This document shows positions 3,136 to 53,798 of a stretch of 64,000 bases of DNA, piece by piece. Location of the stretch: the NCBI GenBank assembly GCA_000002435.2, contig CM018791.1. One strand, written 5' to 3'. Numbering within the stretch: position 1 is the stretch's first letter; each line of letters opens with the position of its first letter. Below the pieces are notes generated by a model. It had not been told where the DNA came from. It saw only the letters and a list, made by a program, of their open reading frames with translations, and made no database searches. The position numbers were made by a program, and so were the translations under genes. The stretch comes from Giardia intestinalis (lineage: Eukaryota).

Positions 3136-4283
3136 TCACGTGGCCAGATGCCCTTTACCCTGATCCTCGAGAGTGCCCTTAAGAGAGGCAGTCTCAGCAG
3201 ACCTGGCGTCGAGGGCCGCCTCAAGAGTAGTAATCCTGTCCAGCTTGGTCTTGGCATCCTCCTCCAGAAGTGTAATCCTGGCGTTAGCACTGTTCAGAGT
3301 AGTCTCCAAGGCGCCGCACTTGTACCTCAGCATCACGCACTGACCCCCCAGCTCACTAACTGGGATGTCGAATGTAGCGAGCGTCTCGTGCAGCTCCCTG
3401 GCCGTCGGCCTCCTCTCTGGCTCCAGCACGAATATCCTCTCCAGAACATTCTGCATGAAGCCATCAGTGACATCGCTCAGGTCCGGCCTCCACCCGTCAC
3501 GAAGACCTCTGCTGGCTCCTTGCCCCCCAGGAAGTCCAGCCTCCTCAGAGTAGTAAGCTCGTAGAGGATGACCCCGAGGCTCCACACGTCGGAGGCGGGG
3601 CTGGACTCATTACGGAGGAGCACCTCGGGGGCCATGTATACTGCCACTCCCATGAGAGTGCTCTCACTCCACAGGGCGTCCTTGCAGAGGCCGAGGCCAG
3701 CGATGATGAAGCGCTCTCCGTCTGCGCTGATAAATATGTTGGCAGGCCTGAGGTCACAGTGGACAAGCCCCCTATTGTTTGCCCCATTGACGCCGTGGAG
3801 GTAGGCGAGGGCGGCAGCGACCTGCTTCATGGCGGAGAGGATCATAGCGATAGGGACGAGGTTCTTCCTTCGCTTGTGCTCGGCGAGGAGGTTGTCAAGA
3901 GTCCTGCTGTGGCGGTCCGTGACGACGTAGATGAGGCCCTCGTCTTCAATCACTTGATGATACTTGAGGACCCCTGGATGGGAGAGGTCGAGAAGGGCGG
4001 TCAGCTCTAGTCTGATGGCATCTGCACTGTTCTTGTCCAGGCCACCGAGCTGAATCTCCTCCACGGTGAGGTGGGGGCCTCTCCTGAGAGAGTAGATAAC
4101 ACTGAAGGCATCCTTGCTGAGCATGCTGCCGACCCTGGCTGCTGCGTGCCTCCCCAAGGCTCCAGTCCCAGCCCAGACGCCGCGGACATGCTTTTGGGCA
4201 GGGGGACAGCCTCTCCGCGGGCGGTCCGAGCTGCATCGTAGACTTCGGCCCACGGGATGGCTTATCGCAACGCGCCTGCTCAC
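3136..4283 (-). pseudogene. NEK-like protein kinase with a coiled-coil tail, split over two overlapping ORFs (4283..3477 and 3585..3136). The split is either a real frameshift or a sequencing error. The catalytic loop HCDLRPAN is retained, but DFG is replaced by AGLGL, so it is probably a pseudokinase.
   Basis: The 268-aa ORF has kinase subdomains (VHCDLRPANIF, YMAPEV, SDVWSLGVILYEL). The 149-aa ORF in another frame continues the C-lobe (QNVLERIFVLEPERRPTARELHETLA), followed by a heptad-like TLEAALDARSAETASLKGTLED. Confidence 0.5.
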
Positions 4284-36701: not shown

Positions 36702-37295
36702 ATGACACCCGATGGCGAGGAAAAAGCCACTAAAGATCAAAAACCGTCTCCGCTTTGCTTAAGCAGCGATGTCTTTGTAACATTTGAGTACACGGTTAGC
36801 GGGGAGGAGCCCAGCCAACCCTGCTACACAAAGAACTCCAACCATGCTTTTTCTACCTCTCAGGATACAATAGGAGAGCTAATTGCAGATACTGTGCTTG
36901 TCAGGGGTATGCCACTTGCATCAGGAAGAATGCTAAAACAGATCCTATTGAGCTGTGTTTCTGCTATCGTTTCAGCGGACGATTATCCCGCATCCATTAG
37001 GCAAAGTCTTGTCAAGCACATCAGTGATGCTAGTGTCTCCAGTCAGGTGATTAGGAGGCGTTACATTACCTACGGTAGGGAGCATCAGAACATATTGAAA
37101 GGTCTTCTTCATAGCGCCGTGGCCTGCAGTGTCTCATATAACTTAACGACTGATCCAGCTGTGCTTTCACACATGGTAACCTACATGAACGCGCTTCTAC
37201 CCACTGGAGAGATAAAGACCATAGTCTGTGGGATCTCCAAATTTGATGAAAACGCACCTGGGTCTATGCTTAAATCCGCCTTTTTTCGTCTCTAG
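36702..37295 (+). CDS. Hypothetical protein (197 aa).
   Basis: ORF bounded by neighbouring genes. No motif recognised. Confidence 0.35.
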   Translation: MTPDGEEKATKDQKPSPLCLSSDVFVTFEYTVSGEEPSQPCYTKNSNHAFSTSQDTIGELIADTVLVRGMPLASGRMLKQILLSCVSAIVSADDYPASIRQSLVKHISDASVSSQVIRRRYITYGREHQNILKGLLHSAVACSVSYNLTTDPAVLSHMVTYMNALLPTGEIKTIVCGISKFDENAPGSMLKSAFFRL

Positions 37296-37378: not shown

Positions 37379-38584
37379 ATGAAACCCAGTAAGTTCTGTG
37401 ATGAGATTGCTCGCGCCTTGCGTGATTTATCGAGCAACCGAGAAATCTTGTACATGGGCTGCTTAATGCAATGGCAGAACAAGGCATTTACCATCCTCTA
37501 TGAACAGCATTTCTCTGATGTCATAGAAGTAGTCCACAAGTTGACCATGAAGATTCTGAATATGTCTGTTTCAATGAAAGAGCAGTTTCGGTCTTTCTTG
37601 GCCCAGTATGAACTTAGTGTTAAGGGCCCTTCTGTTACTGATGAATCTATCGGGTCTGATGCTTCAGGCGCTGAACCGGCTTCCAGGAAGACTTTATCAA
37701 AAGTGGATACTGAAGCAGGGCTTCGCCCCGCGTTGCGAGTGTATAGTACTGTACGTTGGACGTACTTATACATATGTATTCTCAACTTTTATGAAAATCT
37801 AGAGCGGCTCATAGCGTTCATAAGTCGGTGCCCGAATACAACCTCTGTTCTTTCAAAGCATCTTGCTACACAGCTTATTAACCTTACCTGGATTCGGCGA
37901 TTGGCGTTCCTTGCAGATATCTTCCAGCTCTGTAGGGGCCTCCGACTCCTAATGGAAGGGCCACGTATTGTACCGGGGCACGCGCTGCTGGAGATGGGCG
38001 GGCTCCGGGACGCGCTGCAGACGGTGCTCGCCGAGCTCCGGGCCGGGGTCTGGACCCGCCTCCCCCGGCTGGGTGCGCGCCTTCGGGATGGGGCCGCACT
38101 CCCTGACGAGGAGAGGAGGTCCCTTGCGGGCGCCCTGGAGGCCTTTGTCGCCGAGCTCGATGCGTGCTTGTCGGCGTACCGGCAGTGCCTTCCGCTTCTC
38201 CGGCTGACGGTGTCCCCCGTGTGTGCCCCGGCAGCGGGAGGAGCGGCGCCTCCGGAGCCATTCCCGGTTCCAGGGGTGGACCGGGACGGGTTTACCGCGG
38301 AGTATCGGGGCTTCAGCGGCGGAGAACGCGGAGACGCGCACCGGCGTTGCCTGGAAAGAATTCGCGGCATGACGTGCAACGCGGCCCGCTGGAACGCACT
38401 AGTGACCTTCTGGGCGGACCAGAGGGCAGCGTATCCGCAGACCAGCCGGGCCGCGCTCGGGCTCCTGACGGTACTCGCGACCGTCTGTGCCTCCGAAGTA
38501 TCCTCCTCCGCGCTCAAGCGGGCCCTGAGCCGGGGAGCAGGCGCCGTGCTCCTTGCGCGCCTCGACGCGCGCGTGGGCGAGTAA
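37379..38584 (+). CDS. Hypothetical 401-aa ORF that is compositionally chimeric. The N-terminal ~200 aa are AT-normal. The C-terminal ~200 aa (from 37979) are about 80% GC, Ala/Leu/Arg-rich, and lie inside the inverted repeat.
   Basis: Uninterrupted frame across the composition jump. The GC-rich half reads as a plausible helical protein (HALLEMGGLRDALQTVLAELRAGVWTRLPRLGARLRDGAALPDEERRSLAGALEAFVAELDACLSAYRQ...). Confidence 0.35.
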   Translation: MKPSKFCDEIARALRDLSSNREILYMGCLMQWQNKAFTILYEQHFSDVIEVVHKLTMKILNMSVSMKEQFRSFLAQYELSVKGPSVTDESIGSDASGAEPASRKTLSKVDTEAGLRPALRVYSTVRWTYLYICILNFYENLERLIAFISRCPNTTSVLSKHLATQLINLTWIRRLAFLADIFQLCRGLRLLMEGPRIVPGHALLEMGGLRDALQTVLAELRAGVWTRLPRLGARLRDGAALPDEERRSLAGALEAFVAELDACLSAYRQCLPLLRLTVSPVCAPAAGGAAPPEPFPVPGVDRDGFTAEYRGFSGGERGDAHRRCLERIRGMTCNAARWNALVTFWADQRAAYPQTSRAALGLLTVLATVCASEVSSSALKRALSRGAGAVLLARLDARVGE

Positions 38585-38595
38585 AGCAGGGAAAG

Positions 38596-38668
38596 TACCG
38601 ACGACGGGGCTCGAACCCGCGACCACAGGATTAAGAGTCCTGCGCTCTACCGACTGAGCTACATCGGC
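38596..38668 (-). tRNA. tRNA-Lys (anticodon CTT), left inverted-repeat copy.
   Basis: Reverse complement of the cloverleaf GCCGATG-TA-GCTC-AGTCGGTA-GAGC-G-CAGGA-CTCTTAA-TCCTG-TGGTC-GCGGG-TTCGAGC-CCCGT-CGTCGGT-A. It has a GTTCGAG T-loop, and the A/B-box positions are conserved. Confidence 0.8.
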
Positions 38669-38732
38669 GCGACCGCACGCAGAATATCAGAATGACTTGT
38701 AATTTTGCTAGCAGTGTGTTGGTATTTGATCA

Positions 38733-41159
38733 ATGGCCGTTCTGCCGTCCGGCTACACGTACCTCCAGACCCTCGAGGACGGCGTCCTTCGCAAGCTCTA
38801 TACGGCCGCCCGGCACGATGGCGTCTCCTGCCTTTGTGAGGAGGTCTTTGTTGGACCTCCCCCTGCGCCTTCTGCCTCTTCGCTTCGCGCCTGTCCTGCC
38901 CTGATCGCTCGCCTCGATTCGCCCTTCCTTGGAAAATACATTCTTGTCCAGCCAGATAATCAGCGCAGGTCTGTCTTTCTTCTTTCCCAGCATGTCCAGG
39001 ATTTCTCTCTCTTCACTCTCTTTACGGCCCACACAGGCTCGCGACCATACACTCCAGAGGATGATATATGGCAAATTTTATATGGCGCACTTCAAGGACT
39101 GGCCTATCTTCATAGCCCTTTGGCAAAGCCTGTTCTTGTTCACGGTGCAATTTCACCCACCTCGGTCTATGTGTCTAGAGATGGAGCTGGGCTTTTGCGG
39201 TCACTGTGGAGCGTTCGAGAAAGTGGATCCCCCTTTACGGGCGACGCATACTCACCCCTCACCCCATACGTAGCCCCCGAGGTCCTGAAATCTCAGGCCA
39301 TAACTACCAAGGCAGACGTTTGGGCTCTTGGTTGTATAATTTATGAACTATGTGTGCAAAAGCAACTCTTTGCTGCGGCTAGCGAAGAAGAGATGGTCGC
39401 GCGTATCCTCACACCCGTGTCTGTCACCTTGCCGCCACAGTACTCGCGCGACTTAGTGACCGTTCTTCGCGCCATGCTTGAACAAGACCCGTTCCAACGG
39501 CCAGGAGCTGTTGTTCTTCTCGGACACCCTCGCTTCGAGCACTTCGATAATTCCCTCCCTGAGGATCACGAGGCTACCGCTGACTGCAAAGATCCTACCC
39601 TTTCTCGTGTCAACACAGTGCTAGCAGACAGCACAATGTCCTTTAGTTCCGTTGGCAGCTCTGTGGCCCCACTTCTTCCCGAATCTAATAGCCCCCTTTC
39701 CCAGGCAATTGCCGCCGGCAACAAGACTGCATTTACGAAGGCGCTAGGGGCATGGAAAGGGAAAGCAGACTCGAACGGCTACTCCAGCCTAATGTACGCC
39801 ATAGTCTATCAGAATACACCGATGGCTAAGCTTCTATTGAAATCGGATGCAGGGCTCCAGGACCGCACTGGCCGAAGCGCACTTATGTACGCATCTTCCT
39901 ATGACAAACTTGAACTCGTTCAAGAACTGATCCGGCGCGAGGGACGCCTTCGCGACAGGGCTGGGCGAACGGCGCTAATGCATGCAGCAGCGTCTGACTC
40001 CTTGCTGTCTATACGAGCCCTCATTCCCCTCGAAGCAGGGCTTGCCGATAATGAAGGCTCAACTGCCTTGATGATCGCCATTAAGAGCGGCGCATATCGT
40101 GCCGTGAGCATGCTTTATATTCAGGAAGCCAGATATCAATCTATGCTGGGAAAGACCGCCCTTATGCTTGCTGCACAACTTGATTGCGGCGTAGCCATCA
40201 ATCTGCTTGCAGAGGAGGAGACATACCTTGAGGACTCGTATGGGATGACTGCATCCCAATATGCCGAGCTGGCTGGTAACCAAGTTGGCGAGCTAGCACT
40301 TCGAGAACATGATCAAACCATAGTAACCGGGAAAACAGTTGCGGGGAGGCTGAGCTCTCTTCCTAAGCTGGGAATCAAAGGCGGGGCCCTGACCCTCGAG
40401 GAACGAGAACGCGTCAATATGCTGTCGGGATCACTTCCCAGAGATGAGCAAGGCAATACGTCGTTAATGCTGGCTATTCTGGAAGGCGATCGAATCTCTG
40501 CCGAAAGCTATCTTCCGAGCCAGATGGGCTTTAGAAATGCTGATTCAGAAACAGCCCTTATGCTTTGCGCAAAGAAGAATCTATCTGGTATCGCTGCTCT
40601 TCTCCTTGCTGCAGAGTCGGGACTGCGCGTTGGGCTTAGCTCTTCTGTGCCCAAGGAGCGAGTTGGCATGACTGCGCTCATGCATGCAGCAGAAGCAAAT
40701 GCAGTAGAGGTGTGCAAGGTCCTTTTGACAGCAGAGGCCGGGTCAGTGCGAAAGGACGGCAAGACGGCCCTTATTCTTGCCGCTATGGCTGACGCAAAAG
40801 ACGCTGCCCTTGTCTTGGGAGCTTGTGATAAAGAGGCAGGCCAGCATGACACAAACGGCTTCACAGCTCTGATGGGGGCTGTGCAGCATAGAAATGTAGA
40901 TCTTGCCAAGCTTCTATTGAAGAAAGAAGCCGGCTTTCAGAAAAACGACGGCACTGCTGCGATACACATTGCAGTGTTTCTCGAAGATGTCGCCTTGGTA
41001 AAGCTGCTCTTTTCTTATGAAAAGGACTTGCAGCTAGCAGACGGCAGAACTGCCCAGACGATTGCAATTGCTCTTAACAATCCTGCATTGCAGGCTGTCT
41101 TCGATGAACCCACAAAGAAGCGCTCCAAAAGCCGGGCACAAGGGAGCGCCAAGCGATAG
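38733..41159 (+). CDS. NEK-like kinase domain fused to about 14 ankyrin repeats (a Giardia 'Kinase, NEK' / 21.1-type protein). It is a predicted pseudokinase. This is the left inverted-repeat copy.
   Basis: Kinase fold with HGAISPTSVYVSRDGAGLL replacing HRDLKPxN...DFG, APEVL and DVWALGCIIYEL. 'TALM' ankyrin repeats follow (SALMYAS, TALMHAA, TALMIAI, TALMLAA, TALMLCA, TALMHAAEA, TALILAA, TALMGAV). Confidence 0.85.
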   Translation: MAVLPSGYTYLQTLEDGVLRKLYTAARHDGVSCLCEEVFVGPPPAPSASSLRACPALIARLDSPFLGKYILVQPDNQRRSVFLLSQHVQDFSLFTLFTAHTGSRPYTPEDDIWQILYGALQGLAYLHSPLAKPVLVHGAISPTSVYVSRDGAGLLRSLWSVRESGSPFTGDAYSPLTPYVAPEVLKSQAITTKADVWALGCIIYELCVQKQLFAAASEEEMVARILTPVSVTLPPQYSRDLVTVLRAMLEQDPFQRPGAVVLLGHPRFEHFDNSLPEDHEATADCKDPTLSRVNTVLADSTMSFSSVGSSVAPLLPESNSPLSQAIAAGNKTAFTKALGAWKGKADSNGYSSLMYAIVYQNTPMAKLLLKSDAGLQDRTGRSALMYASSYDKLELVQELIRREGRLRDRAGRTALMHAAASDSLLSIRALIPLEAGLADNEGSTALMIAIKSGAYRAVSMLYIQEARYQSMLGKTALMLAAQLDCGVAINLLAEEETYLEDSYGMTASQYAELAGNQVGELALREHDQTIVTGKTVAGRLSSLPKLGIKGGALTLEERERVNMLSGSLPRDEQGNTSLMLAILEGDRISAESYLPSQMGFRNADSETALMLCAKKNLSGIAALLLAAESGLRVGLSSSVPKERVGMTALMHAAEANAVEVCKVLLTAEAGSVRKDGKTALILAAMADAKDAALVLGACDKEAGQHDTNGFTALMGAVQHRNVDLAKLLLKKEAGFQKNDGTAAIHIAVFLEDVALVKLLFSYEKDLQLADGRTAQTIAIALNNPALQAVFDEPTKKRSKSRAQGSAKR

Positions 41160-43097
41160 CCGAATTGCAGCCTCACAGAATGTGACACACTGGCCTGTGG
41201 TTACTAGCTTTGGGAGGCCTGGCCTATGGGCTTCAATTGCCATACTTATCCACCAAGAATGAACACTGCGAAGGTGCCTACTCATTATTTGACAATTCAG
41301 GTTTTACACATGTTTCCTTGTGCATTATTGGGAGGAAGCATGAAAAATCCACATTCTTCGAAGGTAAAGCTCCTGTCCCCTACATCTATTTTCTAATAAA
41401 GCATTCAACTGCACAGACTAAGTGCTGCAGCTATCTCATGGTATTGAAAACCGTATATACAGGCTTTATCCTCAGACCTGCTAGAGTTGATTGGGGGGCC
41501 ATTAGCCTACTAATTTGACATGAACAGAAGGAGTAATGTGCCTATTCGGTCGACATTGAGGGTTAAACCACACCAATGACTGACTATGTGCCACACGGAT
41601 CACTCCCAGTAAGCATTTGTTACAAACTAGAGAGTCCTGCACGGTCAATTTACAGCACATCTTTCCATCATAACCTTCAAAGTAGGCGTCCATTCTGTTA
41701 TCACATAGCCTGTTGAGCCATGAGTGACACCTGCAACGTTTCTGCTTAACAGATTAAATGTTCTAAGCTTGTTCTTTGAATAATAAGTATAGCTGTCCCG
41801 TATTATTTACACAGAGGTGAAGACACGATACACTTATGCGCCAGGATCGCATTAAATTAGACCTTGATTGATAGCTATATATTCTACTGATTGCTCGCGC
41901 TCTTGGATTGCAGAATGAATAAAAGGTAGCTAGATTGCATGCATTACTATTGTAGAGTAAGTTATTTTAGGACGGATCCTGCAATCCTACTGGTGTCCAT
42001 CTCCCTAGATATCTGCATCTGGAGAGGACTGTTTCCTGGCTGCCTGTGACAAGCATAAAGGAAACGTGTCTTGAAGAAAAGCACATTCACAGGGTCGTAT
42101 ATTAATGCGGCTCAGCATGTCCATCAAGATTGGCATCGGATGGACTTCTGACAGCTGAGTACAGGAGTGCCTAGTTGCGCAAACTGTGGACCCGCAGTTC
42201 CTAAGCATACTAAGTAGCATCTCTTCAGTTCTGTGGCCTAAGTCAAGCGTTCTGCAGATAGACTCCTAAGTTAATGTGCTTCTGGCTATGATTTTCAGCT
42301 CTGGAGGTTCTGTCCCGTCCGCAGACTACTACTTCTAGATACAGTCTTTCTGCATCGGGAGTGAGGGGCTCTGTGGCCTCTTACTCTCCCTTCATACAAA
42401 TACAGACAGGTCCTTGCAGAAGAGACCCAGAGCTCTTGTAGCATTTACGCTGTGGCTACGCACCGTACCTCCCCACGCTTCTCTCGGATACTCACGGCGG
42501 CTGTATCCCTGGTTGTCCACGCTACGTTGCCCCACATGAGAAGTCCATTAGCGAAGCGCTTGTGGTCACCGAAGCTGCCTGCTCAATATCGGTTAGCGGC
42601 CTTCACCGGTATTTCACGTCCACATATGCAAGGGGCACCTGCGTCTCAGCGCCGTCCCTCAGGCACTGTAGCAGGCGAGGTCTGACTTCGCTGCATTGGC
42701 GGTTTCGTGATATGCATCCAGCTACCCGATGTTTGGCAATGGTCTGTGCCAATTCCTGAGCAACTGGTAACAAATCCTTACCTGTTTAGAGTCATACCTG
42801 TGAAGGGTGTCCCTTACATCACGGAAGACCCTAGCCGCCGGTCGACGCTCGGCGCCAGATGCCTCCTGCGGGCCACGAGGAGCGAATCTGCATGGGTCTT
42901 CCCACATGCTGCTAGCGCCGGGCCGCCCGCCCATTGCGCGCATGACCAACGCCTCGGCGCCAGACCCGCAACGCAGGAGGAGTGTGTGTTCATTCACTCT
43001 TTGCAAACGAGCAAGATATTCAGATCCAGCCCCAACAATTCTTAAGTAATGAGCTGCGACGTCTAAGCTACAGCCGTATTCAATGATTTACAGAAAA

Positions 43098-46000
43098 TTA
43101 GAGCTGAACCATGGATGGTTGTCTGGAACCATTTAGTAGAGGTGCAGTAGAGTACATAGACGCAGTAAGACTAGAATTGCGAGTGAGTTGCGGCTTAGGA
43201 AGCCCGCGACCAGGCTTCCGCGGGGCACGCTCCCTCAGTACACCGCTCTTCCTGGGCCGTATCACGAACCACCAGACGAGGAAGCCGGCCACCGCAGCGA
43301 GGACGAGGAGAACGACGACCACGATCGCAGCTGTTGTGCCGGCAGACGATTTGTTAGATGGAGCAGGGACTCCGCAGACGAAGTCGCTTGTGAGAGAGAA
43401 GCCTTCATCGCATATGCAAGTGGGCTTTACGCCGTTCTCAGACACGCACCTGCCGTTGCCCCCGCAGATCGTCACGGTGCCGTCGGTGCCGCGCTGGATG
43501 CACTGGCTGCTGATGCAGAGCCCCTCGGAGACGGTCTCGTAGCCGCTTCTGCAGCTGCACAAGCCCCCGTCGGAGAGCTGGCAGTCGCCGTTCCCCCCGC
43601 ACAGCGTTCCACTGGAAACGCAGGCCGATGGGTAGCAGAGGGTCCCGTGGAGGGTCCAGCCTTGTCTGCAGCTGCAGATCGCAGAGGACCCTTCACCAGT
43701 ACACTCTCCTCCGCCGTTGCAGACTTTCCCGTCCTTGAGACACCTTGTGGGGATGCAATCAGTCTTGACCAGAGTATAGTCTTTTGCACACAGGCAGCCG
43801 TAGGTGTCGCCGGTCTTCTCGCAGGCGCCGAAGCCGCTACAAAGCTTGTTGTCTGACGAGACGCAGCTGCTATGCACACAACCATTTTGACCAGGGAGGT
43901 TCTTAAAATTGGGGGCCTGGCAGTTGCATGTTCCTGTGTCACCGGTCTCCGTGCACGTCCCACCACCATCACAAACTTCTGAAAGAATGCTCTCGTGCGC
44001 CCCGAAGCACTCCTTGACGAAGCACTGGCCGGTCTTCTTGTCTGTACGGTACCTGCTGTTGTCGCACCTGCACATTCCTGTACCAGTGGTGGCTTCAACG
44101 CATGTTCCACGGTTATTACATATCTTAGTAATGTCATCAGCGTGATCTCTCGGCATGCATTCTCTATATACGCAGACACTTGATCCAATGAGAATTGTTC
44201 CAGAATTGCAACTACATTCCCCAGTGGCCTCGCCGTTGTCATTGCACGTACCCATACCATAGCACGTTTTTTCTGTCTGATCGTATGGATCCGTCCAGAC
44301 GCACCTGGACTTCCGGCACTTCTTGCTAGCACTGTCAACGACGAAGCTCGAGTTGACGCAGACGCAGTTGAAGCTACTGCCACCAAACTGACAAGTTCCT
44401 GCATCAGTATTTTCTTCCATACTACAGCTATCTTTTGGACAGTTGCTAAGATAACATCGCTTATCTGTGTGTTCCAGGTACCCATCATTGCAAGCCTTGC
44501 ATTGAGGACCTTCGTACCCAGGGTAGCACTTACATGTCTTTTCTTCTATAGAGCAAGTTCCCCTTCCGCTGCATATCATGGTTGTGTCTGTCTCCGAGAC
44601 AGCACATACCTCCGGGATACACACATAATTTCCTAATATGCCTTTGACTGTTTTGTAGCCAGACTCACAGCTGCAAGAATATTCTACGGTATGATCCCCC
44701 TTGCATGTTCCGTGACCAGAACACTCGACATTCCTGAAGGTGTTTCCAGGCAGGACGTCACTGAGACACACTCTCTTGATGCACTTTTTATTCTCCAGCT
44801 GGACAATGTCAGATCGCTCTATACACTTGCAGTAGGGTTCGGATGACTGAGTGGTATTCAGAATGCACATTCCAAACTGTCTTCCGCCGCATGTAGTATT
44901 CATTTTGGTGTTATCTAGTTTTGTAATCTCAAATATGCAAGCCTTTGGCAGACAGAACCCATCAAGTTCTTCGTACCCGTCAGGCCTCGGGTCCTTGCAC
45001 TTACAAGCGTAGTCTCGACGATCGCCGTGCGACGCTATCTTTGTGCACACACCAATCGTGTCACCGCCACATACGGATTCAGTGAGCCTTCCGTTACTGT
45101 CTGTAGCATTGATGAAGCAATTGAGACCAACACAGACCTTATCCACCAACTTGGTCCCTAGATTGCATATGCATCCATCAGGTCCACACCTACCCGCGCC
45201 TCCACAGATCACCGGTACGTCCTTGTCTTTACTAGAAATACACTTTTCTAGCACGCATGTCTTCCTCAGCTCGCCGCTTGCGTCTCTAAGTGTATACGCA
45301 TTCGCACCATTAGTACACGTGCATTGCTTGTCCTTCAATAAACCGTTGGCACTGCATGTTCCCAGCCCGTTACACTCTATGGCGGCGTCGTTCGCAGACG
45401 CCCTATACATGCACTTGCTCGGGACACACGTGTCTCTATTTCCATCTTGATTTCTTTTATCACTCAGTTCGTAGCCCTCGGAGCAGACGCAGCCGTAGCG
45501 GTTATCATCTCCCTTCACGCACGAAGCCAAAGAGTCACCTCCGCAATACTTATCCCCAGACATGCAGCTTTGGTGAACGCAAAGCCCATTAAAAGACTTG
45601 TATGAAAAAGCACACTTGCACGAGTACGTGTTTCCATTAGAATCTTGTGTGCAACTCCCAACGGTGCCGTCGTAGACCTTGCATTCGACGTACTTAAGTT
45701 CTCCATTGTGGATCACCTTTCCGGCGCACCCGGGGTGAGTGCAGTAACCACCAAAGGCCTCAAAACCATCCTTACACTCACATCCATATCGGCCGGTCAG
45801 CTGGTTGTACGCGCAGACTCCCTTCCCAGAGCAGACGTGGCGATCTAACGTTAGCTTCCTTGCATCGGCTGCCGTCACGCCCACAGGCAGGCAGTCGTAG
45901 CTGTAGCACATGTCACCGATCCTCAGGAAGCCCGGGTTGCAGGTGCAGGACTCATTTTCGTTTATGTAGCCAGCTCCGGGGCCGCCGCATAGACCTCTTG

Positions 46001-48179
46001 CTAGCTTAGTCTGTGGATTCGCATTCTTGCTTTTTAAAATGCACGTCTTGTTGTATGTAACATAGTCCCCAGTGCAATTACACTGCCACGTCGTGTCCCG
46101 GCCGACGGTGCAGTGGAGTTCGTGACTGCCCAGCGCAGCGCAGTACTTAGGTGCTCCTGGGCCGGCGAGCTTTTTATCAAGCTTGCACGCATTGGTGACG
46201 CACGCCTTTAAACTTTGGTCCCACGTAGCATCTGGACCGCAATCGCATTCATATCCTTCGTTACCATCCTTCTTTTTGACACAGTCTCCCACACCACCAC
46301 AGTAATTGTACCACATATGATAAATAGATCTACCGTCGTGACAGTCGGTATGCATGCAGGTTGCATTGTTTTCCCCAAAGTGTACAAGATGAAAGCCAGT
46401 TGGGCACACAGTGCACGTTTCAGGTAGATTGGAGCCTTCAGAAGGCTTAGCACAGGTTGGCATTCGATCGTCCTGAAGACTATCTGTCAGCCCCTCTAGG
46501 AACCCACAAAAGAACCTTCTTGTCTTATCTATCTTACTGATAAATACACATCCAGGTTTAGCAGAGAAGGTGCCGTTGTAGGCTGAAACGTTCCCATCAC
46601 TGGAGCCTTTAGGGACGCATGTGATGAACGGATTGCTAGGATCTCCATAAGTGGTGTACGTGCCTGTGTTCCCGCAGATATCCTGAGCAGTAGCCGTGCG
46701 CAGACTGGGCTGTGGATCCGGTGGTTGTTGTTGCACAATGCACTTCTTTGCAATGCATTTCTTGTCAATCACTTGCGCATTTTGTTGATTACATTCTGCG
46801 CACTTAGCTCCTGTGTAGATAGGCGAACACTGGCACGTCATCGTATAAGGAGCCTCAGCACTAACGACAATGCGTCCATGATCACTGCAAACCGTGGCAG
46901 GGATATCCACCAGACTGCTCAAGATGCAGCGCCCTGGAGCGATGTAGGTATAGTCCTGATCACAAGTGCATTGTATATTTCGTAGATCGTCCGTCTTGCA
47001 CGTGCCGTGCCCCGAGCAGACCTTCCCAAGTTCCTCGTCCATGCACGCGGGGGACGTGCACTCTCCGTCAACGGCAATGAGCATGTCCGGGCAGCGGCAG
47101 TGGTACTCGCCATCGAACTTGACACATGTTCCTCCGTTCTTGCATGATTCTCGCTTGTCTGAGGTGAGGCATCCCACTGGAACGCACTTGCCATTTATCT
47201 TAGCAGACTTGTCAGTGCAAGTATCGCAGAGGTCGCCCGTGGCAAGTCCCCGGCAATCGCACTTATAGCCAGCGCCGTCACGCACACAGGCGCCCACTCC
47301 GCCACAGATCTTCGAGTTGGAGCTATCGGTGCAGGTCGGATGCGTGCAGAACTCACCAACCTGGACTGCATTAGAATCGCAAACACACCTGAAGGTGCCG
47401 GTATTTCCCTCATCTGTGCAGTTCCCAAAGCCCCCGCAGACGACCGGGGACCCGTCGATCGTGGCCACGCACTCTGTCCTGACGCACTTGTGTCCAACGC
47501 GTGTATATCCCGTCTCACAGGCACAACGGTAGTGGTATGATTCGCGATTGAGGCCTACGTCGAGGACACAGTTACCATGTCCTGAGCACACAGTGCCGTC
47601 AGGATCCTGGCAAGCCCGTGGGTTACAAGTGGGGAGATTGTCCTGTGAGGGAGTCTTAGCATCAATTGCGTTGGCGTCGTCGCACGACTGGCAGAGACTC
47701 CCGCGGTAGATCGGGTAGCAGTCGCACGCGTAGTCGTCAGCACTCAGCCCGGCCAGCCCGGGGTCCTTCAGGAGGCAGCGGCCGCGGCCGTTGCAGGGAG
47801 GCTTCGTTGCCTCCTGTCCTGAGAGGTCACCGGTGTTGAAGCAGCTCTTCGGCAGGCACTCGCCCTCGTAGGACACGAAGCCATCGGGGCAGGGGTCGCA
47901 CGAGTACGCCCCCGCGTAGTAGGTGCACTTGTTCGACTCTGTGCACTCCGTCCCGTTCACGAGGCAAGCGTAGTTGACGGCCCTGTCTGCGGGTGTCTGC
48001 CCACTGGTAGTTACCCTGCGGAACCCTGCACGGGGAGCATCGCACGCAGCCCCCGCCCAGCCCCGCCTGCACTGGCAGAAGTATGCTCCGTCCCCGTAGG
48101 TGCAATTTCCGTGGACGCACTCGGGGCCTGTTCCGCATGCACTGGCGAGGAATGCAATAGCATACAGGAGAATCAGCAT
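43098..48179 (-). CDS. High-cysteine membrane protein (HCMP), 1693 aa. It has a signal peptide, a long EGF/VSP-like CXXC-CXC-rich ectodomain, a single C-terminal TM helix and a 45-aa cytoplasmic tail. It lacks the VSP CRGKA terminus.
   Basis: N-terminus MLILLYAIAFLASACG. Hundreds of Cys in GxCxC, CxxC and CxCxxGY patterns. C-terminus AIVVVVLLVLAAVAGFLVWWFVIRPRK. The initiator ctttaaaatcactgtATG lies on the minus strand, and TGTAAAT follows about 8 nt after the stop. Confidence 0.85.
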   Translation of the reverse strand: MLILLYAIAFLASACGTGPECVHGNCTYGDGAYFCQCRRGWAGAACDAPRAGFRRVTTSGQTPADRAVNYACLVNGTECTESNKCTYYAGAYSCDPCPDGFVSYEGECLPKSCFNTGDLSGQEATKPPCNGRGRCLLKDPGLAGLSADDYACDCYPIYRGSLCQSCDDANAIDAKTPSQDNLPTCNPRACQDPDGTVCSGHGNCVLDVGLNRESYHYRCACETGYTRVGHKCVRTECVATIDGSPVVCGGFGNCTDEGNTGTFRCVCDSNAVQVGEFCTHPTCTDSSNSKICGGVGACVRDGAGYKCDCRGLATGDLCDTCTDKSAKINGKCVPVGCLTSDKRESCKNGGTCVKFDGEYHCRCPDMLIAVDGECTSPACMDEELGKVCSGHGTCKTDDLRNIQCTCDQDYTYIAPGRCILSSLVDIPATVCSDHGRIVVSAEAPYTMTCQCSPIYTGAKCAECNQQNAQVIDKKCIAKKCIVQQQPPDPQPSLRTATAQDICGNTGTYTTYGDPSNPFITCVPKGSSDGNVSAYNGTFSAKPGCVFISKIDKTRRFFCGFLEGLTDSLQDDRMPTCAKPSEGSNLPETCTVCPTGFHLVHFGENNATCMHTDCHDGRSIYHMWYNYCGGVGDCVKKKDGNEGYECDCGPDATWDQSLKACVTNACKLDKKLAGPGAPKYCAALGSHELHCTVGRDTTWQCNCTGDYVTYNKTCILKSKNANPQTKLARGLCGGPGAGYINENESCTCNPGFLRIGDMCYSYDCLPVGVTAADARKLTLDRHVCSGKGVCAYNQLTGRYGCECKDGFEAFGGYCTHPGCAGKVIHNGELKYVECKVYDGTVGSCTQDSNGNTYSCKCAFSYKSFNGLCVHQSCMSGDKYCGGDSLASCVKGDDNRYGCVCSEGYELSDKRNQDGNRDTCVPSKCMYRASANDAAIECNGLGTCSANGLLKDKQCTCTNGANAYTLRDASGELRKTCVLEKCISSKDKDVPVICGGAGRCGPDGCICNLGTKLVDKVCVGLNCFINATDSNGRLTESVCGGDTIGVCTKIASHGDRRDYACKCKDPRPDGYEELDGFCLPKACIFEITKLDNTKMNTTCGGRQFGMCILNTTQSSEPYCKCIERSDIVQLENKKCIKRVCLSDVLPGNTFRNVECSGHGTCKGDHTVEYSCSCESGYKTVKGILGNYVCIPEVCAVSETDTTMICSGRGTCSIEEKTCKCYPGYEGPQCKACNDGYLEHTDKRCYLSNCPKDSCSMEENTDAGTCQFGGSSFNCVCVNSSFVVDSASKKCRKSRCVWTDPYDQTEKTCYGMGTCNDNGEATGECSCNSGTILIGSSVCVYRECMPRDHADDITKICNNRGTCVEATTGTGMCRCDNSRYRTDKKTGQCFVKECFGAHESILSEVCDGGGTCTETGDTGTCNCQAPNFKNLPGQNGCVHSSCVSSDNKLCSGFGACEKTGDTYGCLCAKDYTLVKTDCIPTRCLKDGKVCNGGGECTGEGSSAICSCRQGWTLHGTLCYPSACVSSGTLCGGNGDCQLSDGGLCSCRSGYETVSEGLCISSQCIQRGTDGTVTICGGNGRCVSENGVKPTCICDEGFSLTSDFVCGVPAPSNKSSAGTTAAIVVVVLLVLAAVAGFLVWWFVIRPRKSGVLRERAPRKPGRGLPKPQLTRNSSLTASMYSTAPLLNGSRQPSMVQL

Positions 48180-48767: not shown

Positions 48768-50578
48768 TGCGGGTCTGGCGCCGAGGCGTTGGTCATGCGC
48801 GCAATGGGCGGGCGGCCCGGCGCTAGCAGCATGTGGGAAGACCCATGCAGATTCGCTCCTCGTGGCCCGCAGGAGGCATCTGGCGCCGAGCGTCGACCGG
48901 CGGCTAGGGTCTTCCGTGATGTAAGGGACACCCTTCACAGGTATGACTCTAAACAGGTAAGGATTTGTTACCAGTTGCTCAGGAATTGGCACAGACCATT
49001 GCCAAACATCGGGTAGCTGGATGCATATCACGAAACCGCCAATGCAGCGAAGTCAGACCTCGCCTGCTACAGTGCCTGAGGGACGGCGCTGAGACGCAGG
49101 TGCCCCTTGCATATGTGGACGTGAAATACCGGTGAAGGCCGCTAACCGATATTGAGCAGGCAGCTTCGGTGACCACAAGCGCTTCGCTAATGGACTTCTC
49201 ATGTGGGGCAACGTAGCGTGGACAACCAGGGATACAGCCGCCGTGAGTATCCGAGAGAAGCGTGGGGAGGTACGGTGCGTAGCCACAGCGTAAATGCTAC
49301 AAGAGCTCTGGGTCTCTTCTGCAAGGACCTGTCTGTATTTGTATGAAGGGAGAGTAAGAGGCCACAGAGCCCCTCACTCCCGATGCAGAAAGACTGTATC
49401 TAGAAGTAGTAGTCTGCGGACGGGACAGAACCTCCAGAGCTGAAAATCATAGCCAGAAGCACATTAACTTAGGAGTCTATCTGCAGAACGCTTGACTTAG
49501 GCCACAGAACTGAAGAGATGCTACTTAGTATGCTTAGGAACTGCGGGTCCACAGTTTGCGCAACTAGGCACTCCTGTACTCAGCTGTCAGAAGTCCATCC
49601 GATGCCAATCTTGATGGACATGCTGAGCCGCATTAATATACGACCCTGTGAATGTGCTTTTCTTCAAGACACGTTTCCTTTATGCTTGTCACAGGCAGCC
49701 AGGAAACAGTCCTCTCCAGATGCAGATATCTAGGGAGATGGACACCAGTAGGATTGCAGGATCCGTCCTAAAATAACTTACTCTACAATAGTAATGCATG
49801 CAATCTAGCTACCTTTTATTCATTCTGCAATCCAAGAGCGCGAGCAATCAGTAGAATATATAGCTATCAATCAAGGTCTAATTTAATGCGATCCTGGCGC
49901 ATAAGTGTATCGTGTCTTCACCTCTGTGTAAATAATACGGGACAGCTATACTTATTATTCAAAGAACAAGCTTAGAACATTTAATCTGTTAAGCAGAAAC
50001 GTTGCAGGTGTCACTCATGGCTCAACAGGCTATGTGATAACAGAATGGACGCCTACTTTGAAGGTTATGATGGAAAGATGTGCTGTAAATTGACCGTGCA
50101 GGACTCTCTAGTTTGTAACAAATGCTTACTGGGAGTGATCCGTGTGGCACATAGTCAGTCATTGGTGTGGTTTAACCCTCAATGTCGACCGAATAGGCAC
50201 ATTACTCCTTCTGTTCATGTCAAATTAGTAGGCTAATGGCCCCCCAATCAACTCTAGCAGGTCTGAGGATAAAGCCTGTATATACGGTTTTCAATACCAT
50301 GAGATAGCTGCAGCACTTAGTCTGTGCAGTTGAATGCTTTATTAGAAAATAGATGTAGGGGACAGGAGCTTTACCTTCGAAGAATGTGGATTTTTCATGC
50401 TTCCTCCCAATAATGCACAAGGAAACATGTGTAAAACCTGAATTGTCAAATAATGAGTAGGCACCTTCGCAGTGTTCATTCTTGGTGGATAAGTATGGCA
50501 ATTGAAGCCCATAGGCCAGGCCTCCCAAAGCTAGTAACCACAGGCCAGTGTGTCACATTCTGTGAGGCTGCAATTCGG

Positions 50579-53005: not shown

Positions 53006-53069
53006 TGATCAAATACCAACACACTGCTAGCAAAATTACAAGTCATTCTGATATTCTGCGTGCGGTCGC

Positions 53070-53142
53070 GCCGATGTAGCTCAGTCGGTAGAGCGCAGGA
53101 CTCTTAATCCTGTGGTCGCGGGTTCGAGCCCCGTCGTCGGTA
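53070..53142 (+). tRNA. tRNA-Lys (anticodon CTT), right inverted-repeat copy.
   Basis: gccgatgtagctcagtcggtagagcgcaggactcttaatcctgtggtcgcgggttcgagccccgtcgtcggta folds as a 73-nt cloverleaf. Acceptor stem 7 bp with G-U pairs, D-stem GCTC/GAGC, anticodon stem CAGGA/TCCTG, loop CTCTTAA, T-stem GCGGG/CCCGT. Confidence 0.8.
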
Positions 53143-53153
53143 CTTTCCCTGCT

Positions 53154-53798
53154 TTACTCGCCCACGCGCGCGTCGAGGCGCGCAAGGAGCACGGCGCCTG
53201 CTCCCCGGCTCAGGGCCCGCTTGAGCGCGGAGGAGGATACTTCGGAGGCACAGACGGTCGCGAGTACCGTCAGGAGCCCGAGCGCGGCCCGGCTGGTCTG
53301 CGGATACGCTGCCCTCTGGTCCGCCCAGAAGGTCACTAGTGCGTTCCAGCGGGCCGCGTTGCACGTCATGCCGCGAATTCTTTCCAGGCAACGCCGGTGC
53401 GCGTCTCCGCGTTCTCCGCCGCTGAAGCCCCGATACTCCGCGGTAAACCCGTCCCGGTCCACCCCTGGAACCGGGAATGGCTCCGGAGGCGCCGCTCCTC
53501 CCGCTGCCGGGGCACACACGGGGGACACCGTCAGCCGGAGAAGCGGAAGGCACTGCCGGTACGCCGACAAGCACGCATCGAGCTCGGCGACAAAGGCCTC
53601 CAGGGCGCCCGCAAGGGACCTCCTCTCCTCGTCAGGGAGTGCGGCCCCATCCCGAAGGCGCGCACCCAGCCGGGGGAGGCGGGTCCAGACCCCGGCCCGG
53701 AGCTCGGCGAGCACCGTCTGCAGCGCGTCCCGGAGCCCGCCCATCTCCAGCAGCGCGTGCCCCCTGTGTGCAATGGGCAACATCGTAAGGTGCAACAT
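53154..53798 (-). CDS. Truncated copy of the GC-rich C-terminal half of the 37379..38584 ORF. The frame reopens only 12 codons outside the repeat (MLHLTMLPIAHRG), so it is probably a non-functional remnant.
   Basis: Identical to the GC-rich segment from HALLEMGG to ...ARVGE. The N-terminal half found on the left side is absent here. Confidence 0.3.
   Translation of the reverse strand: MLHLTMLPIAHRGHALLEMGGLRDALQTVLAELRAGVWTRLPRLGARLRDGAALPDEERRSLAGALEAFVAELDACLSAYRQCLPLLRLTVSPVCAPAAGGAAPPEPFPVPGVDRDGFTAEYRGFSGGERGDAHRRCLERIRGMTCNAARWNALVTFWADQRAAYPQTSRAALGLLTVLATVCASEVSSSALKRALSRGAGAVLLARLDARVGE

What the first reader, a model, noticed from the sequence alone, without database searches (positions are those of the whole stretch)
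37975..38584. An ~80% GC coding-like island begins exactly at the inverted-repeat boundary, fused in-frame to an AT-normal ORF
Within the 401-aa ORF (37379..38584), composition switches abruptly at 37979 from about 48% GC to about 80% GC. A sampled stretch 38001-38060 gives 48/60 G+C. That is the precise nucleotide where the inverted repeat begins. The GC-rich half translates into a plausible Ala/Leu/Arg-rich helical protein that looks more like a high-GC genome's protein than the surrounding Giardia coding sequence. The opposite strand gives only low-complexity Ser/Arg/Pro junk. In the right arm (53154-53763) the same island is present but lacks the N-terminal half. This marks the segment as a foreign or mobile module, an ancient HGT fragment, or the recombination junction that created the repeat.
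Basis: seen in the sequence. Interest (0 to 1): 0.65.

Follow-up and report, generated by a model that had tools for sequence, protein, structure and literature searches.

The report
GC-rich tail of hAT-derived Giardia gene
The GC-rich island is not foreign DNA: it is the native C-terminal third of an old, transposase-derived Giardia gene. It lies inside an ancient 5-kb inverted duplication whose two copies are kept identical by gene conversion, and its GC content jumps exactly where that duplication begins.

Summary
The window is Giardia intestinalis WB. GC jumps from 45% to 72% (peak 80%) within 2 nt of the edge of a perfect 4,996-nt inverted repeat, on both arms.

The island is not a fused or foreign module. 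It encodes the C-terminal 202 residues of GL50803_0022133, including a hAT-transposase dimerisation domain scoring above Pfam's threshold. The protein aligns colinearly across the junction with a bona fide hAT transposase and with an AT-normal Giardia paralog.

In assemblage E (P15) and two more divergent Giardia lineages, the same gene runs uninterrupted through the same junction, with the same GC3 jump at the same codon. dN/dS is 0.24, so the island is genuine coding sequence.

The inverted repeat itself is ancient. Arms are identical within WB, within P15 and within a second assemblage-A lineage, yet differ by 2.4–19% between lineages. That is concerted evolution. The right arm holds only a truncated copy.

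The cause of the GC enrichment is unsettled. I favour GC-biased repair tied to conversion ending at the homology limit, similar to mouse Fxy. However, the arm interior is AT-normal. In assemblage A, a T6/T7 frameshift splits the gene.

The parts
36702..37295 (+). ORF1 (GL50803_0015769, 197 aa). This is the N-terminal third of the ancestral ~630-aa hAT-like gene, cut off in assemblage A by a frameshift.
   Evidence: Exact match to the annotated WB protein. In P15, L008 and L009 it is continuous with ORF2. dN/dS against P15 is 0.26.
37281..37286 (+). T6 homopolymer. P15 has T7 here. The missing T puts ORF1 and ORF2 in different frames (ORF2 = ORF1 frame minus 1).
   Evidence: DNA alignment of WB, L002 and P15. 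The two-ORF state is seen on 50-81 independent contigs.
37379..38584 (+). ORF2 (GL50803_0022133, 401 aa). It holds the middle and C-terminal parts of the hAT-like gene. The reading frame is already open and conserved from about 37301.
   Evidence: BLASTP against the hAT protein P0029 gives E 7e-14 over aa 70-301. hhalign probability is 94.9%.
37975..38584 (+). The GC-rich island: 72% GC (GC1 .77, GC2 .59, GC3 .81). It encodes the last 202 codons of the hAT-like gene and forms the outermost 610 nt of the left repeat arm.
   Evidence: dN/dS against P15 is 0.24, there are no indels, and differences by codon position are 19/14/48.
38399..38533 (+). hAT family C-terminal dimerisation domain (PF05699), residues 341-385 of ORF2, with a retained Glu in 'ASEVSS'.
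   Evidence: Pfam score of 24.1 bits against a gathering score of 21.4, E 3e-5. The P15 composite scores 22.9 bits.
37975..42970 (.). Left arm of the inverted repeat: island, tRNA-Lys, NEK kinase and 1.8 kb of non-coding DNA.
   Evidence: 100% complementary to 48768-53763 over 4,996 nt. The left junction is crossed by contigs L002 and L003 from other samples.
48768..53763 (.). Right arm of the inverted repeat.
   Evidence: The right junction is crossed by independent contigs L004 and L005 (100% identical to WB) and by L011. The same arrangement is found in P15 contig ACVC01000087.
53154..53798 (-). Truncated right-arm copy of the island: a 214-aa ORF made of 12 unrelated codons plus 202 island codons. 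It is probably a non-functional fragment kept identical by conversion.
   Evidence: In P15 the corresponding copy has no in-frame ATG and an upstream stop.
38595..38668 (-). tRNA-Lys(CTT), 10 nt beyond the ORF2 stop codon. It is mirrored at 53070-53143 (+).
   Evidence: ARAGORN. Rfam RF00005 at 71.8 bits.
38733..41159 (+). NEK kinase with ankyrin repeats (808 aa) inside the arm, mirrored at 50579..53005 (-). GC3 is 0.52, so it is not GC-enriched except in its first ~70 codons.
   Evidence: dN/dS against P15 is 0.13.
37977..38018 (+). A 12-nt direct near-repeat, GGCACGCGCTGC / GGGACGCGCTGC, with copies 30 nt apart. It accounts for the ~30-nt difference between the WB and P15 right-arm edges through slippage or misaligned conversion.
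   Evidence: (family D6) and the four-way junction alignment.
43098..48179 (-). A 1,693-aa cysteine-rich membrane protein gene (HCMP/VSP-like) that fills the spacer. Its two ends are also GC3-rich (0.74-0.85).

Best explanation
**What the island is.** It is the native 3' third of a single ancient Giardia gene that descends from a hAT-superfamily transposase. The ancestral gene encoded about 630 aa. In WB it is annotated as two hypothetical proteins, GL50803_0015769 and GL50803_0022133, because a T7-to-T6 change splits it in assemblage A. The gene is immobile, syntenic across assemblages, has lost catalytic signature residues, and was under purifying selection over the A/E divergence. It therefore looks like a domesticated transposase gene, and in assemblage A possibly a decaying one.

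**The duplication.** Before assemblages A and E split, and probably earlier, a ~5-kb segment was duplicated in inverted orientation on the far side of a cysteine-rich membrane protein gene. That segment begins inside this gene and contains its last 202 codons, a tRNA-Lys gene and a NEK kinase gene. The left arm keeps the whole gene. The right arm holds only a headless copy of the island. Since then the two arms have been continually homogenised by arm-to-arm gene conversion (concerted evolution).

**The GC enrichment.** This step is inferred, not shown. I think the enrichment was acquired after the duplication and is causally tied to the homology limit. GC-biased repair of heteroduplex would act where conversion or crossover intermediates must end, at the arm termini. 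That would drive both silent and amino-acid-changing sites towards G/C in the part of the gene inside the arm and leave the part outside untouched. This is the same logic as the mouse Fxy gene straddling the pseudoautosomal boundary.
For: **Shown: identity of the gene.**
- Exact matches to the WB proteins.
- PF05699 scores above its gathering score in WB and in P15.
- A library-wide phmmer search hit a FAM200/ZBED5/DUF4371-type hAT protein.
- The BLASTP alignment (E 7e-14) and the hhalign alignment (probability 94.9%, E 4e-8, 245 columns) both run straight across the junction.
- ORF2 aligns colinearly to the end of the protein with paralog P0027, whose gene is 31-51% GC throughout.

**Shown: the junction is ancestral.**
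- P15, L008 and L009 have one ORF through it.
- GC3 jumps at the same codon in all four lineages.48 to 1.00.54 to .92.34 to .72 and .30 to .64.

**Shown: the island is coding.**
- dN/dS is 0.24, there are no indels, and differences by codon position are 19/14/48.

**Shown: the repeat is ancient and evolves in concert.**
- WB arms are 100% identical over 4,996 nt.
- P15 carries both junctions, and its arms are identical over the ~1.2 kb that can be compared.
- In an AII-like lineage, the right arm (L011) is 99.9% identical to the left arm (L002).
- Between lineages, arms differ by 2.4% (WB against the AII-like lineage) and 11-31% (WB against P15).

**Supporting the link between GC and homology.**
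- Change points lie within 2-3 nt of the edge on both WB arms, in the P15 right arm and in L008.
- The inner arm end is also GC-rich (58-67%) and drops at or just beyond the inner edges: about 20 nt outside the left arm's, and 20-70 nt outside the right arm's.
- All three codon positions and the amino-acid composition are shifted: Ala+Arg+Gly make up 40% of the island against 17% upstream.
Against: - **AT-normal arm interior.** Simple arm-wide GC-biased conversion predicts GC enrichment all along the arms. Instead, the fast-evolving non-coding interior (41160-42399, 30% diverged from P15) is only about 43% GC, and the NEK gene has ordinary GC3 (0.52). In a two-copy system, the bias per conversion event should matter rather than conversion frequency. 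The model therefore needs the extra assumption that bias is concentrated at tract ends.
- **GC-rich patches outside the arms.** They occur at both ends of the spacer gene and at window 1-4325.
- **Weak polarised-substitution signal.** In the island, polarised recent substitutions are 6 W>S against 11 S>W, which is too few to show ongoing bias.
- **Limits of the hAT link.** A profile of the Giardia family does not reach Hermes in the PDB, and the AlphaFold model was too poor to use. The hAT link therefore rests on sequence evidence only.
- **Relaxed constraint in assemblage A.** The island's pN/pS is about 0.8 within assemblage A, on few sites, so 'domesticated' may no longer apply in WB.
Confidence: 0.75

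Rival explanations
1. The breakpoint followed the composition, not the reverse. A GC-rich, recombination-prone or fork-stalling patch next to the tRNA gene already existed inside the gene. The inverted duplication simply broke at its edge, and GC richness owes nothing to the repeat.
For: - GC-rich patches of 60-66% also occur outside repeated DNA in this window, at the spacer gene ends and at 1-4325.
- The arm interior is not GC-enriched.
- The GC-rich zone 37975-38950 is roughly centred on the tRNA gene.
- GC-rich sequence at both arm ends fits breakage at such patches.
Against: - This model needs a separate explanation for a pre-existing step of about 27 GC points, sharp to within a few nt, in the middle of a gene whose paralog is compositionally flat.
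- The step coincides with the homology limit to 2-3 nt in several lineages.
Confidence: 0.25
2. One reading: the island is a foreign or HGT-derived or otherwise unrelated module, fused in frame to a Giardia ORF by the recombination that created the repeat.
For: The composition and amino-acid content resemble proteins from high-GC genomes. The island starts at the repeat edge.
Against: - The same junction occurs in four Giardia lineages, including AT-poor ones.
- Homology to a hAT transposase and to a Giardia paralog is colinear across the junction.
- The hAT dimerisation domain sits where a hAT protein should have it.
- The searches returned only Giardia proteins and hAT-type proteins.
Confidence: 0.03
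3. The perfect inverted repeat is an assembly artefact, so the coincidence of the edge with the GC jump is meaningless.
For: 100% identity over 5 kb is what a mis-assembled duplicate would look like.
Against: Both junctions are crossed by independent short-read contigs from several samples (L002-L005, L011) and by two contigs of the independently assembled P15 genome, with the same layout.
Confidence: 0.02
4. GC richness reflects selection rather than biased repair. Two versions are possible: translational selection for C/G-ending optimal codons, known from prior knowledge to drive GC3 towards 100% in highly expressed Giardia genes, or a second function encoded on the opposite strand or as an RNA.
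For: GC3 reaches 1.00 over the first 25 codons of the island. A 242-aa antisense ORF exists.
Against: - One mRNA (in P15, L008 and L009) cannot be weakly expressed in its first two thirds and highly expressed in its last third.
- GC1 and GC2 and the amino-acid composition are shifted too.
- Substitutions follow the sense-frame codon pattern 19/14/48.
- Rfam finds nothing but the tRNA.
Confidence: 0.05

Closest known systems
Domesticated hAT transposase genes of the FAM200 / ZBED5 / GTF2IRD2 (Buster/Charlie-like) type; more loosely DAYSLEEPER and Kat1
   Same: - The C-terminal hAT dimerisation domain scores above Pfam's threshold.
- Similarity to a FAM200/ZBED5/DUF4371-type protein is colinear, including the R-W motif and the 'LAxLxDIF…L…LQG'-like helix.
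- The gene is single-copy, has no terminal inverted repeats, is syntenic across lineages and is under purifying selection.
   Different: - No BED zinc finger was detected in this gene.
- CxxH is changed to C-L-M-Q.
- The N-terminal RNase-H-like part has no detectable Pfam match.
- The gene is split by a frameshift in assemblage A.
- I found no report of a hAT-derived gene in Giardia. Only retrotransposons are described there (PMC2875222).
Mouse Fxy (Mid1) gene spanning the pseudoautosomal boundary (Perry & Ashworth 1999; recalled from memory, not checked here)
   Same: One gene straddles a boundary. Its 3' part lies in the segment that undergoes intense recombination or conversion. Only that part shows a dramatic rise in GC3 and GC-driven amino-acid replacements, with a sharp step at the boundary.
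   Different: Here the boundary is the edge of an intrachromosomal inverted repeat rather than of a meiotic recombination hotspot region. The enrichment covers only about 600 nt at the arm end rather than the whole recombining segment. A W>S substitution excess has not been demonstrated.
Palindromes or inverted repeats maintained by arm-to-arm gene conversion (human Y and primate X palindromes, plastid inverted repeats)
   Same: Arms are essentially identical within a genome yet diverged between lineages. Boundaries are conserved, and a unique spacer lies between the arms.
   Different: This repeat is much smaller (5-kb arms, 5.8-kb spacer) and sits in a compact protist genome. GC elevation is confined to the arm ends rather than spread over the arms.
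Segmental duplications reported for the WB reference genome (Xu et al. 2020, PMC7000408)
   Same: That paper states that 6.9% of the genome results from duplications, often involving gene-family members. It describes head-to-head and tail-to-tail VSP pairs, one with a NEK kinase between them. The duplicated NEK copies in this window carry separate accession numbers.
   Different: The paper text I searched returned no mention of GC content, inverted repeats or transposons, and a full-text search for the gene identifiers found no paper. So I found no description there of this locus, its age, its concerted evolution, the truncated gene copy or the composition step.

Membership tests
hAT transposase superfamily (protein homology) | C-terminal hAT dimerisation domain (PF05699) | tested here: met
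   24.1 bits against a gathering score of 21.4 in WB ORF2, aa 341-385. The P15 full-length composite scores 22.9 bits.
hAT transposase superfamily (protein homology) | Colinear similarity to the transposase core or insertion domain, including the R-W motif | tested here: met
   phmmer E 4.4e-5 library-wide to P0029. BLASTP E 7e-14. hhalign probability 94.9%, E 4e-8 over 245 columns, with 'STIRW' aligned to 'TVVRW'. P0029 carries FAM200-ZBED5_RNase-like, DUF4371 and FAM200-GTF2IRD2-like Pfam hits.
hAT transposase superfamily (active transposase) | Intact DDE triad and CxxH motif | tested here: not met
   In the hhalign alignment, the 'HCFLH' of P0029 aligns with 'GCLMQ' in Giardia, so the His is lost. 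The first Asp appears by eye to be Asn ('SYNLTTD'). The second Asp lies just outside the aligned block. The C-terminal Glu is retained ('SEVS'). The Asp assignments are inferences from eye alignment only.
hAT transposase superfamily (active transposon) | Terminal inverted repeats and 8-bp target-site duplication; variable genomic location | tested here: not met
   No flanking inverted repeats beyond chance 11-18-nt matches. Only 47 nt lie upstream and 10 nt downstream before the neighbouring genes. The gene has the same neighbours in WB, the AII-like lineage, P15, L008 and L009.
hAT transposase superfamily | N-terminal BED-type zinc finger | tested here: not met
   No Pfam hit in ORF1 or P0002. 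The paralog's upstream extension has a Cx2C…Hx4H pattern by eye, but no Pfam match.
Inverted repeat under concerted evolution (arm-to-arm gene conversion) | Arms near-identical within each genome but diverged between genomes, with conserved boundaries | tested here: met
   WB arms are 100% identical over 4,996 nt. P15 arms are 100% identical over 558+420 nt and about 200 nt. The AII-like lineage shows 1 mismatch in 1,124 nt. Between lineages the difference is 2.4% and 11-31%. The outer edge is the same to within 30 nt, and the spacer is 5,797 against 5,782 nt.
GC-biased gene conversion tract | GC and GC3 elevation confined to the converting segment, ending at the homology limit | tested here: inconclusive
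   Met at the outer arm end (change point within 2 nt of the edge). At the inner arm end the GC drop lies just outside the edge, by about 20 nt on the left arm and 20-70 nt on the right. Not met in the arm interior, where the non-coding stretch is 43% GC and NEK GC3 is 0.52.
GC-biased gene conversion tract | Excess of weak-to-strong over strong-to-weak substitutions | tested here: inconclusive
   Polarised WB/L002 changes in the island are 6 W>S against 11 S>W. Per-site rates imply an equilibrium GC of about 0.58, against about 0.41 upstream, but the counts are too small.
Horizontally transferred / foreign island | Closest relatives in other, high-GC taxa; absent or differently placed in sister lineages | tested here: not met
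   Only Giardia proteins were returned at E<=0.01 in a search that scored only the 8,000 most word-similar candidates. The island is present at the same site, in the same frame, in four other Giardia lineages.

The most novel reading that the evidence does not exclude
The ends of a small, concertedly evolving inverted repeat act as fixed hotspots of GC-biased repair, because every conversion or crossover intermediate that reaches the homology limit must be resolved there. Over tens of millions of years, this has rewritten the last 200 codons of a gene (GC3 0.48 to 0.8-1.0; Ala+Arg+Gly 17% to 40%) while the first 430 codons stayed unchanged. If this reading is true, the locus would be a natural experiment. 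It would demonstrate biased gene conversion, and hence active homologous recombination, in Giardia, an organism whose sexual or parasexual status is still debated. It would also predict GC steps at the edges of the other duplications that make up 6.9% of the WB genome.

A secondary and much less likely reading is that the T6 run (37281-37286) serves as a -1 frameshift or transcriptional-slippage site that still yields some full-length protein in assemblage A.
Probability: 0.3. Interest if true: 0.6.

Novelty: new member of a known kind. Interest (0 to 1): 0.4.

Why it matters
Three things follow from this analysis.

1. **Annotation.** Two 'hypothetical proteins' of the Giardia reference genome become one ancestral hAT-transposase-derived gene, and a paralog of it exists. 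I found no paper describing DNA-transposon-derived genes in this parasite.

2. **Recombination.** A 5-kb inverted duplication has been kept identical within each of at least three lineages while diverging between them. This is direct sequence evidence for sustained homologous recombination and gene conversion in Giardia.

3. **Composition.** The nucleotide-sharp GC step at the homology limit, conserved across lineages of different base composition, links local composition cleanly to duplication structure. The link can be tested genome-wide.

The analysis also removes a false lead: there is no horizontally acquired high-GC module here.

Tried and rejected
- **Profile against solved structures.** A profile of the Giardia family against PDB sequences gave no Hermes or other transposase hit. 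The best matches had E>=0.18 and were unrelated proteins. A single-sequence search gave only E~0.4 Hermes hits.
- **Structure prediction.** AlphaFold2 on ORF2 with a 5-row alignment gave mean pLDDT 45.9. The model is all-helical but unreliable, so I ran no fold search.
- **RNA families.** Rfam on the island and on the whole window found only the two tRNA-Lys copies. I rejected an RNA gene as the explanation.
- **Transposon ends.** A search for terminal inverted repeats or target duplications around the gene found only short chance matches.
- **Search for an outgroup.**
  - A second protein search with only the AT-normal part found no assemblage B or G. muris ortholog.
  - A metagenome scan found nothing.
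  - I therefore could not obtain a lineage lacking the duplication.
  - The contigs of the two divergent lineages (L008, L009) stop 165 and 84 nt past the junction. The L008 tail is out of register by 26 nt, which could be a real frameshift or a contig-end error.
- **Polarised substitution spectra.** These, and the within-assemblage-A pN/pS values, are based on too few sites to decide anything.
- **Paralog zinc finger.** Pfam found no BED finger in the paralog's N-terminal extension.
- **Literature.** Searches for the gene identifiers, for Giardia hAT or domesticated transposases, and for Giardia GC-biased gene conversion found nothing specific to this locus.
- **Arm-wide gBGC.** I considered and rejected simple arm-wide GC-biased conversion, because the neutral arm interior is AT-normal.
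Full report

Yes. The window is from Giardia intestinalis WB C6. The ORFs match GL50803_0015769, GL50803_0022133 and 'Kinase, NEK' exactly, on a 1,973,847-bp chromosome.

- ORF 37379..38584 (401 aa) exists.
- A perfect inverted repeat has arms at 37975-42970 and 48768-53763. It is 4,996 nt long, 100% complementary, with 5,797 nt between the arms.
- GC is 45.3% over 37379-37974 and 72.0% over 37975-38584. The island averages about 72% GC, and 80% is only its local peak.
- Maximum-likelihood change points lie at 37973 (repeat edge 37975) and 53765 (repeat edge 53763).
- The two island copies are the most GC-rich 600-nt windows in the 64 kb.
- Five of the six sharpest GC steps in the window sit at repeat edges or at the start of the spacer gene.
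- The right arm carries the island behind only 12 unrelated codons, as ORF 53154..53798.

**2. What the island encodes**

The island holds a hAT-family C-terminal dimerisation domain. PF05699 scores 24.1 bits against a gathering score of 21.4, over aa 341-385. The P15 full-length protein scores 22.9 bits.

An exhaustive HMMER search with the P15 ortholog found three kinds of hit besides the Giardia orthologs:
- P0027, a 614-aa paralog elsewhere in the P15 genome, lying between a kinesin gene and an RNA-polymerase large-subunit gene.
- A fragment of that paralog.
- P0029, a 619-aa protein of the FAM200/ZBED5/DUF4371 hAT type.

WB ORF2 residues 70-301 align with P0029 residues 242-476 (BLASTP E 7e-14). 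The Giardia family profile aligns with P0029 over 245 columns (hhalign probability 94.9%, E 4e-8). ORF2 residues 139-398 align with paralog residues 339-607, reaching the C-terminus. All three alignments run straight through residue 199/200, the position of the composition jump.

The island is therefore the natural continuation of the upstream sequence, not an unrelated module.

The features of an active element are missing:
- The CxxH motif reads C-L-M-Q.
- No BED finger is detected.
- There are no terminal inverted repeats, and there is no room for any. Only 47 nt lie upstream and 10 nt downstream before the neighbouring genes.
- The genomic position is conserved.

**3. The junction is ancestral and the island is coding**

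In P15 (assemblage E), GLP15_4100 is one ORF. It covers WB's upstream 197-aa ORF, the inter-ORF stretch and ORF2, and it continues 240 nt into the island before the contig ends. Completing it from the identical right-arm copy gives a 635-aa protein with the same stop codon.

Two more divergent Giardia lineages also read through as one ORF. These are Logan contigs L008 and L009, with locus GC of 44% and 39%.

GC3 jumps at the same codon (…PG|H/Q…) in all four lineages. The L008 change point is within 3 nt of that codon.

| Lineage | GC3 before the junction | GC3 after the junction |
|---|---|---|
| WB | .48 | 1.00 |
| P15 | .54 | .92 |
| L008 | .34 | .72 |
| L009 | .30 | .64 |

WB and P15 island sequences have no indels. 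Their differences fall 19/14/48 on codon positions 1/2/3.

| Region (WB against P15) | dN/dS |
|---|---|
| Island | 0.24 |
| Upstream part of ORF2 | 0.21 |
| ORF1 | 0.26 |

So the sense frame is the constrained one, and the Ser/Arg/Pro antisense ORF is a shadow of it.

**4. A frameshift in assemblage A**

WB and a second assemblage-A lineage have T6 at 37281-37286 where P15 has T7. This puts ORF2 in the -1 frame relative to ORF1. The 26 codons upstream of the ORF2 ATG are still conserved in the ORF2 frame.

The split state is seen on dozens of independent contigs, so it is not a sequencing error in WB. Within assemblage A, pN/pS is 0.25 for ORF1, 0.59 for the upstream part of ORF2 and 0.78 for the island. 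These values rest on few sites. They suggest, without proving, that the part downstream of the frameshift is now relaxed.

**5. The repeat is old and evolves in concert**

P15 contig ACVC01000087 carries the right-arm arrangement in this order: the 1,136-aa NEK gene, the 238-aa ankyrin gene, the island, the tRNA, the 808-aa NEK gene, the spacer, and then the first ~980 nt of the left arm. P15 contig ACVC01000004 carries the left junction.

| Comparison | Result |
|---|---|
| P15 arm against P15 arm | 100% identical over the 558+420 nt and ~200 nt available |
| WB against P15, NEK gene | 11% different |
| WB against P15, island | 13% different |
| WB against P15, arm non-coding DNA | about 30% different |
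| AII-like right arm (L011) against AII-like left arm (L002) | 1 difference in 1,124 nt |
| Each AII-like arm against WB | 2.4% different |

Three lineages with internally identical but mutually diverged arms are the signature of continuing arm-to-arm gene conversion.

The outer edge is the same in WB and P15 except for about 30 nt missing from the P15 right arm. That 30-nt stretch is flanked by a 12-nt direct near-repeat at 37977-37988 and 38007-38018. In the P15 left copy, GC still rises at the WB-equivalent position. This implies a secondary slippage deletion in the P15 right arm.

The right-arm island copy has an ATG in WB but none in P15. It is most simply a non-functional fragment that inherits its open frame from the selected left copy.

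**6. Why is the island GC-rich?**

This part is inference.

Facts favouring a post-duplication, homology-dependent cause:
- The paralog's gene is 31-51% GC throughout.
- The step coincides with the homology limit to 2-3 nt.
- All codon positions and the amino-acid composition are shifted. Ala+Arg+Gly make up 40% of the island against 17% upstream. This points to a mutational or repair bias rather than codon selection.
- The inner arm end is also GC-rich (58-67%) and falls to 39% just outside the repeat.

This resembles the mouse Fxy gene at the pseudoautosomal boundary, which I cite from memory.

Facts against simple arm-wide GC-biased conversion:
- The neutral-looking arm interior (41160-42399) is 43% GC, although it is kept 100% identical between the arms.
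- The NEK gene has ordinary GC3.
- GC-rich patches also occur at both ends of the unique spacer gene and at 1-4325.
- In a two-copy system, conversion frequency alone should not change the equilibrium composition.

I therefore favour a narrower version of the model, in which bias is concentrated where intermediates terminate at the homology limits. The idea that tract ends carry the bias comes from yeast studies, which I recall but did not check. The main rival is that a pre-existing GC-rich, break-prone patch next to the tRNA gene determined where the duplication ended. Polarised substitutions (6 W>S against 11 S>W in the island) are too few to decide between them.

**7. Comparison with what is known, and novelty**

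Domesticated hAT genes, palindromes under gene conversion and GC-biased conversion are all known kinds of thing.

The WB reference paper reports that 6.9% of the genome is duplicated. In the text I searched, it says nothing that identifies this locus. I found no paper mentioning these gene identifiers, or any hAT-derived gene in Giardia. A review lists only retrotransposons for Giardia.

I therefore rate this a new member of known kinds. The foreign/HGT reading is rejected.

**8. Verdict**

- **Observation:** confirmed.
- **Interpretation:** partly supported. The repeat edge and the truncated right copy are correct. The fusion and foreign-origin readings are not.
- **Interest:** moderate (0.4). 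There is no exotic module here. What the locus offers is a clean, testable case linking duplication structure, concerted evolution and a nucleotide-sharp composition shift, together with a newly recognised transposase-derived gene family in Giardia.

Noticed in passing
window 37281-37286 (T6 run); ORF1 36702-37295 and ORF2 37379-38584: One ancestral gene is split into two annotated genes in assemblage A by a single-T difference (T6 in WB and L002 against T7 in P15). The gene is uninterrupted in P15, L008 and L009. A -1 shift at the T run would restore '…SAFFSSLGVD…'.
   Followed up: partly
window 41160-42970 (mirrored at 48768-50578): About 1.8 kb at the inner end of each arm has no ORF longer than 112 aa and no Rfam hit. 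This is unusual for the compact Giardia genome. It is AT-rich (about 43% GC) until the last ~570 nt (58-67% GC). It is about 30% diverged between WB and P15 yet 100% identical between the arms.
   Followed up: partly
window 43098-48179 (-): The spacer is filled by a 1,693-aa cysteine-rich membrane protein gene (HCMP/VSP-like, with a C-terminal TM segment). Its GC3 is 0.74-0.85 in the first and last ~150 codons but 0.42-0.55 in the middle. The spacer has the same orientation in WB, P15 and L002.
   Followed up: partly
window 1-525 and 2551-4325: This is another GC-rich stretch (60-66% GC, with a 200-nt peak of 0.78) far from the repeat. It contains NEK-kinase-like coding sequence split between two overlapping minus-strand ORFs (3136..3585 and 3477..4283, the latter with GC3 0.74). 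It may be a frameshifted kinase gene.
   Followed up: no
L007 9680-11845 (P15 contig ACVC01000126): A paralog of the hAT-like gene lies between a kinesin gene and an RNA polymerase large-subunit gene. Its reading frame extends about 108 codons upstream of the called start. That extension contains a Cx2C-x20-Hx4H pattern reminiscent of a BED zinc finger, but Pfam does not detect one.
   Followed up: partly
window 37977-37988 and 38007-38018: A 12-nt direct near-repeat sits just inside the repeat edge. The P15 right arm lacks exactly the ~30 nt between the two copies. The repeat edge has therefore moved by slippage or misaligned conversion in one lineage.
   Followed up: yes
L008 1-170 (Logan ERR3333380): Near its contig end, the divergent lineage is 26 nt shorter than WB inside the island. 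This would shift the frame. It could be a real frameshift in that lineage or a contig-end assembly error.
   Followed up: no
window 38581-38600: The tRNA-Lys(CTT) gene starts 10 nt after the ORF2 stop codon and is transcribed towards the island. No run of four or more T follows it on its own strand for the length of the island, so Pol III read-through into the island is conceivable.
   Followed up: no
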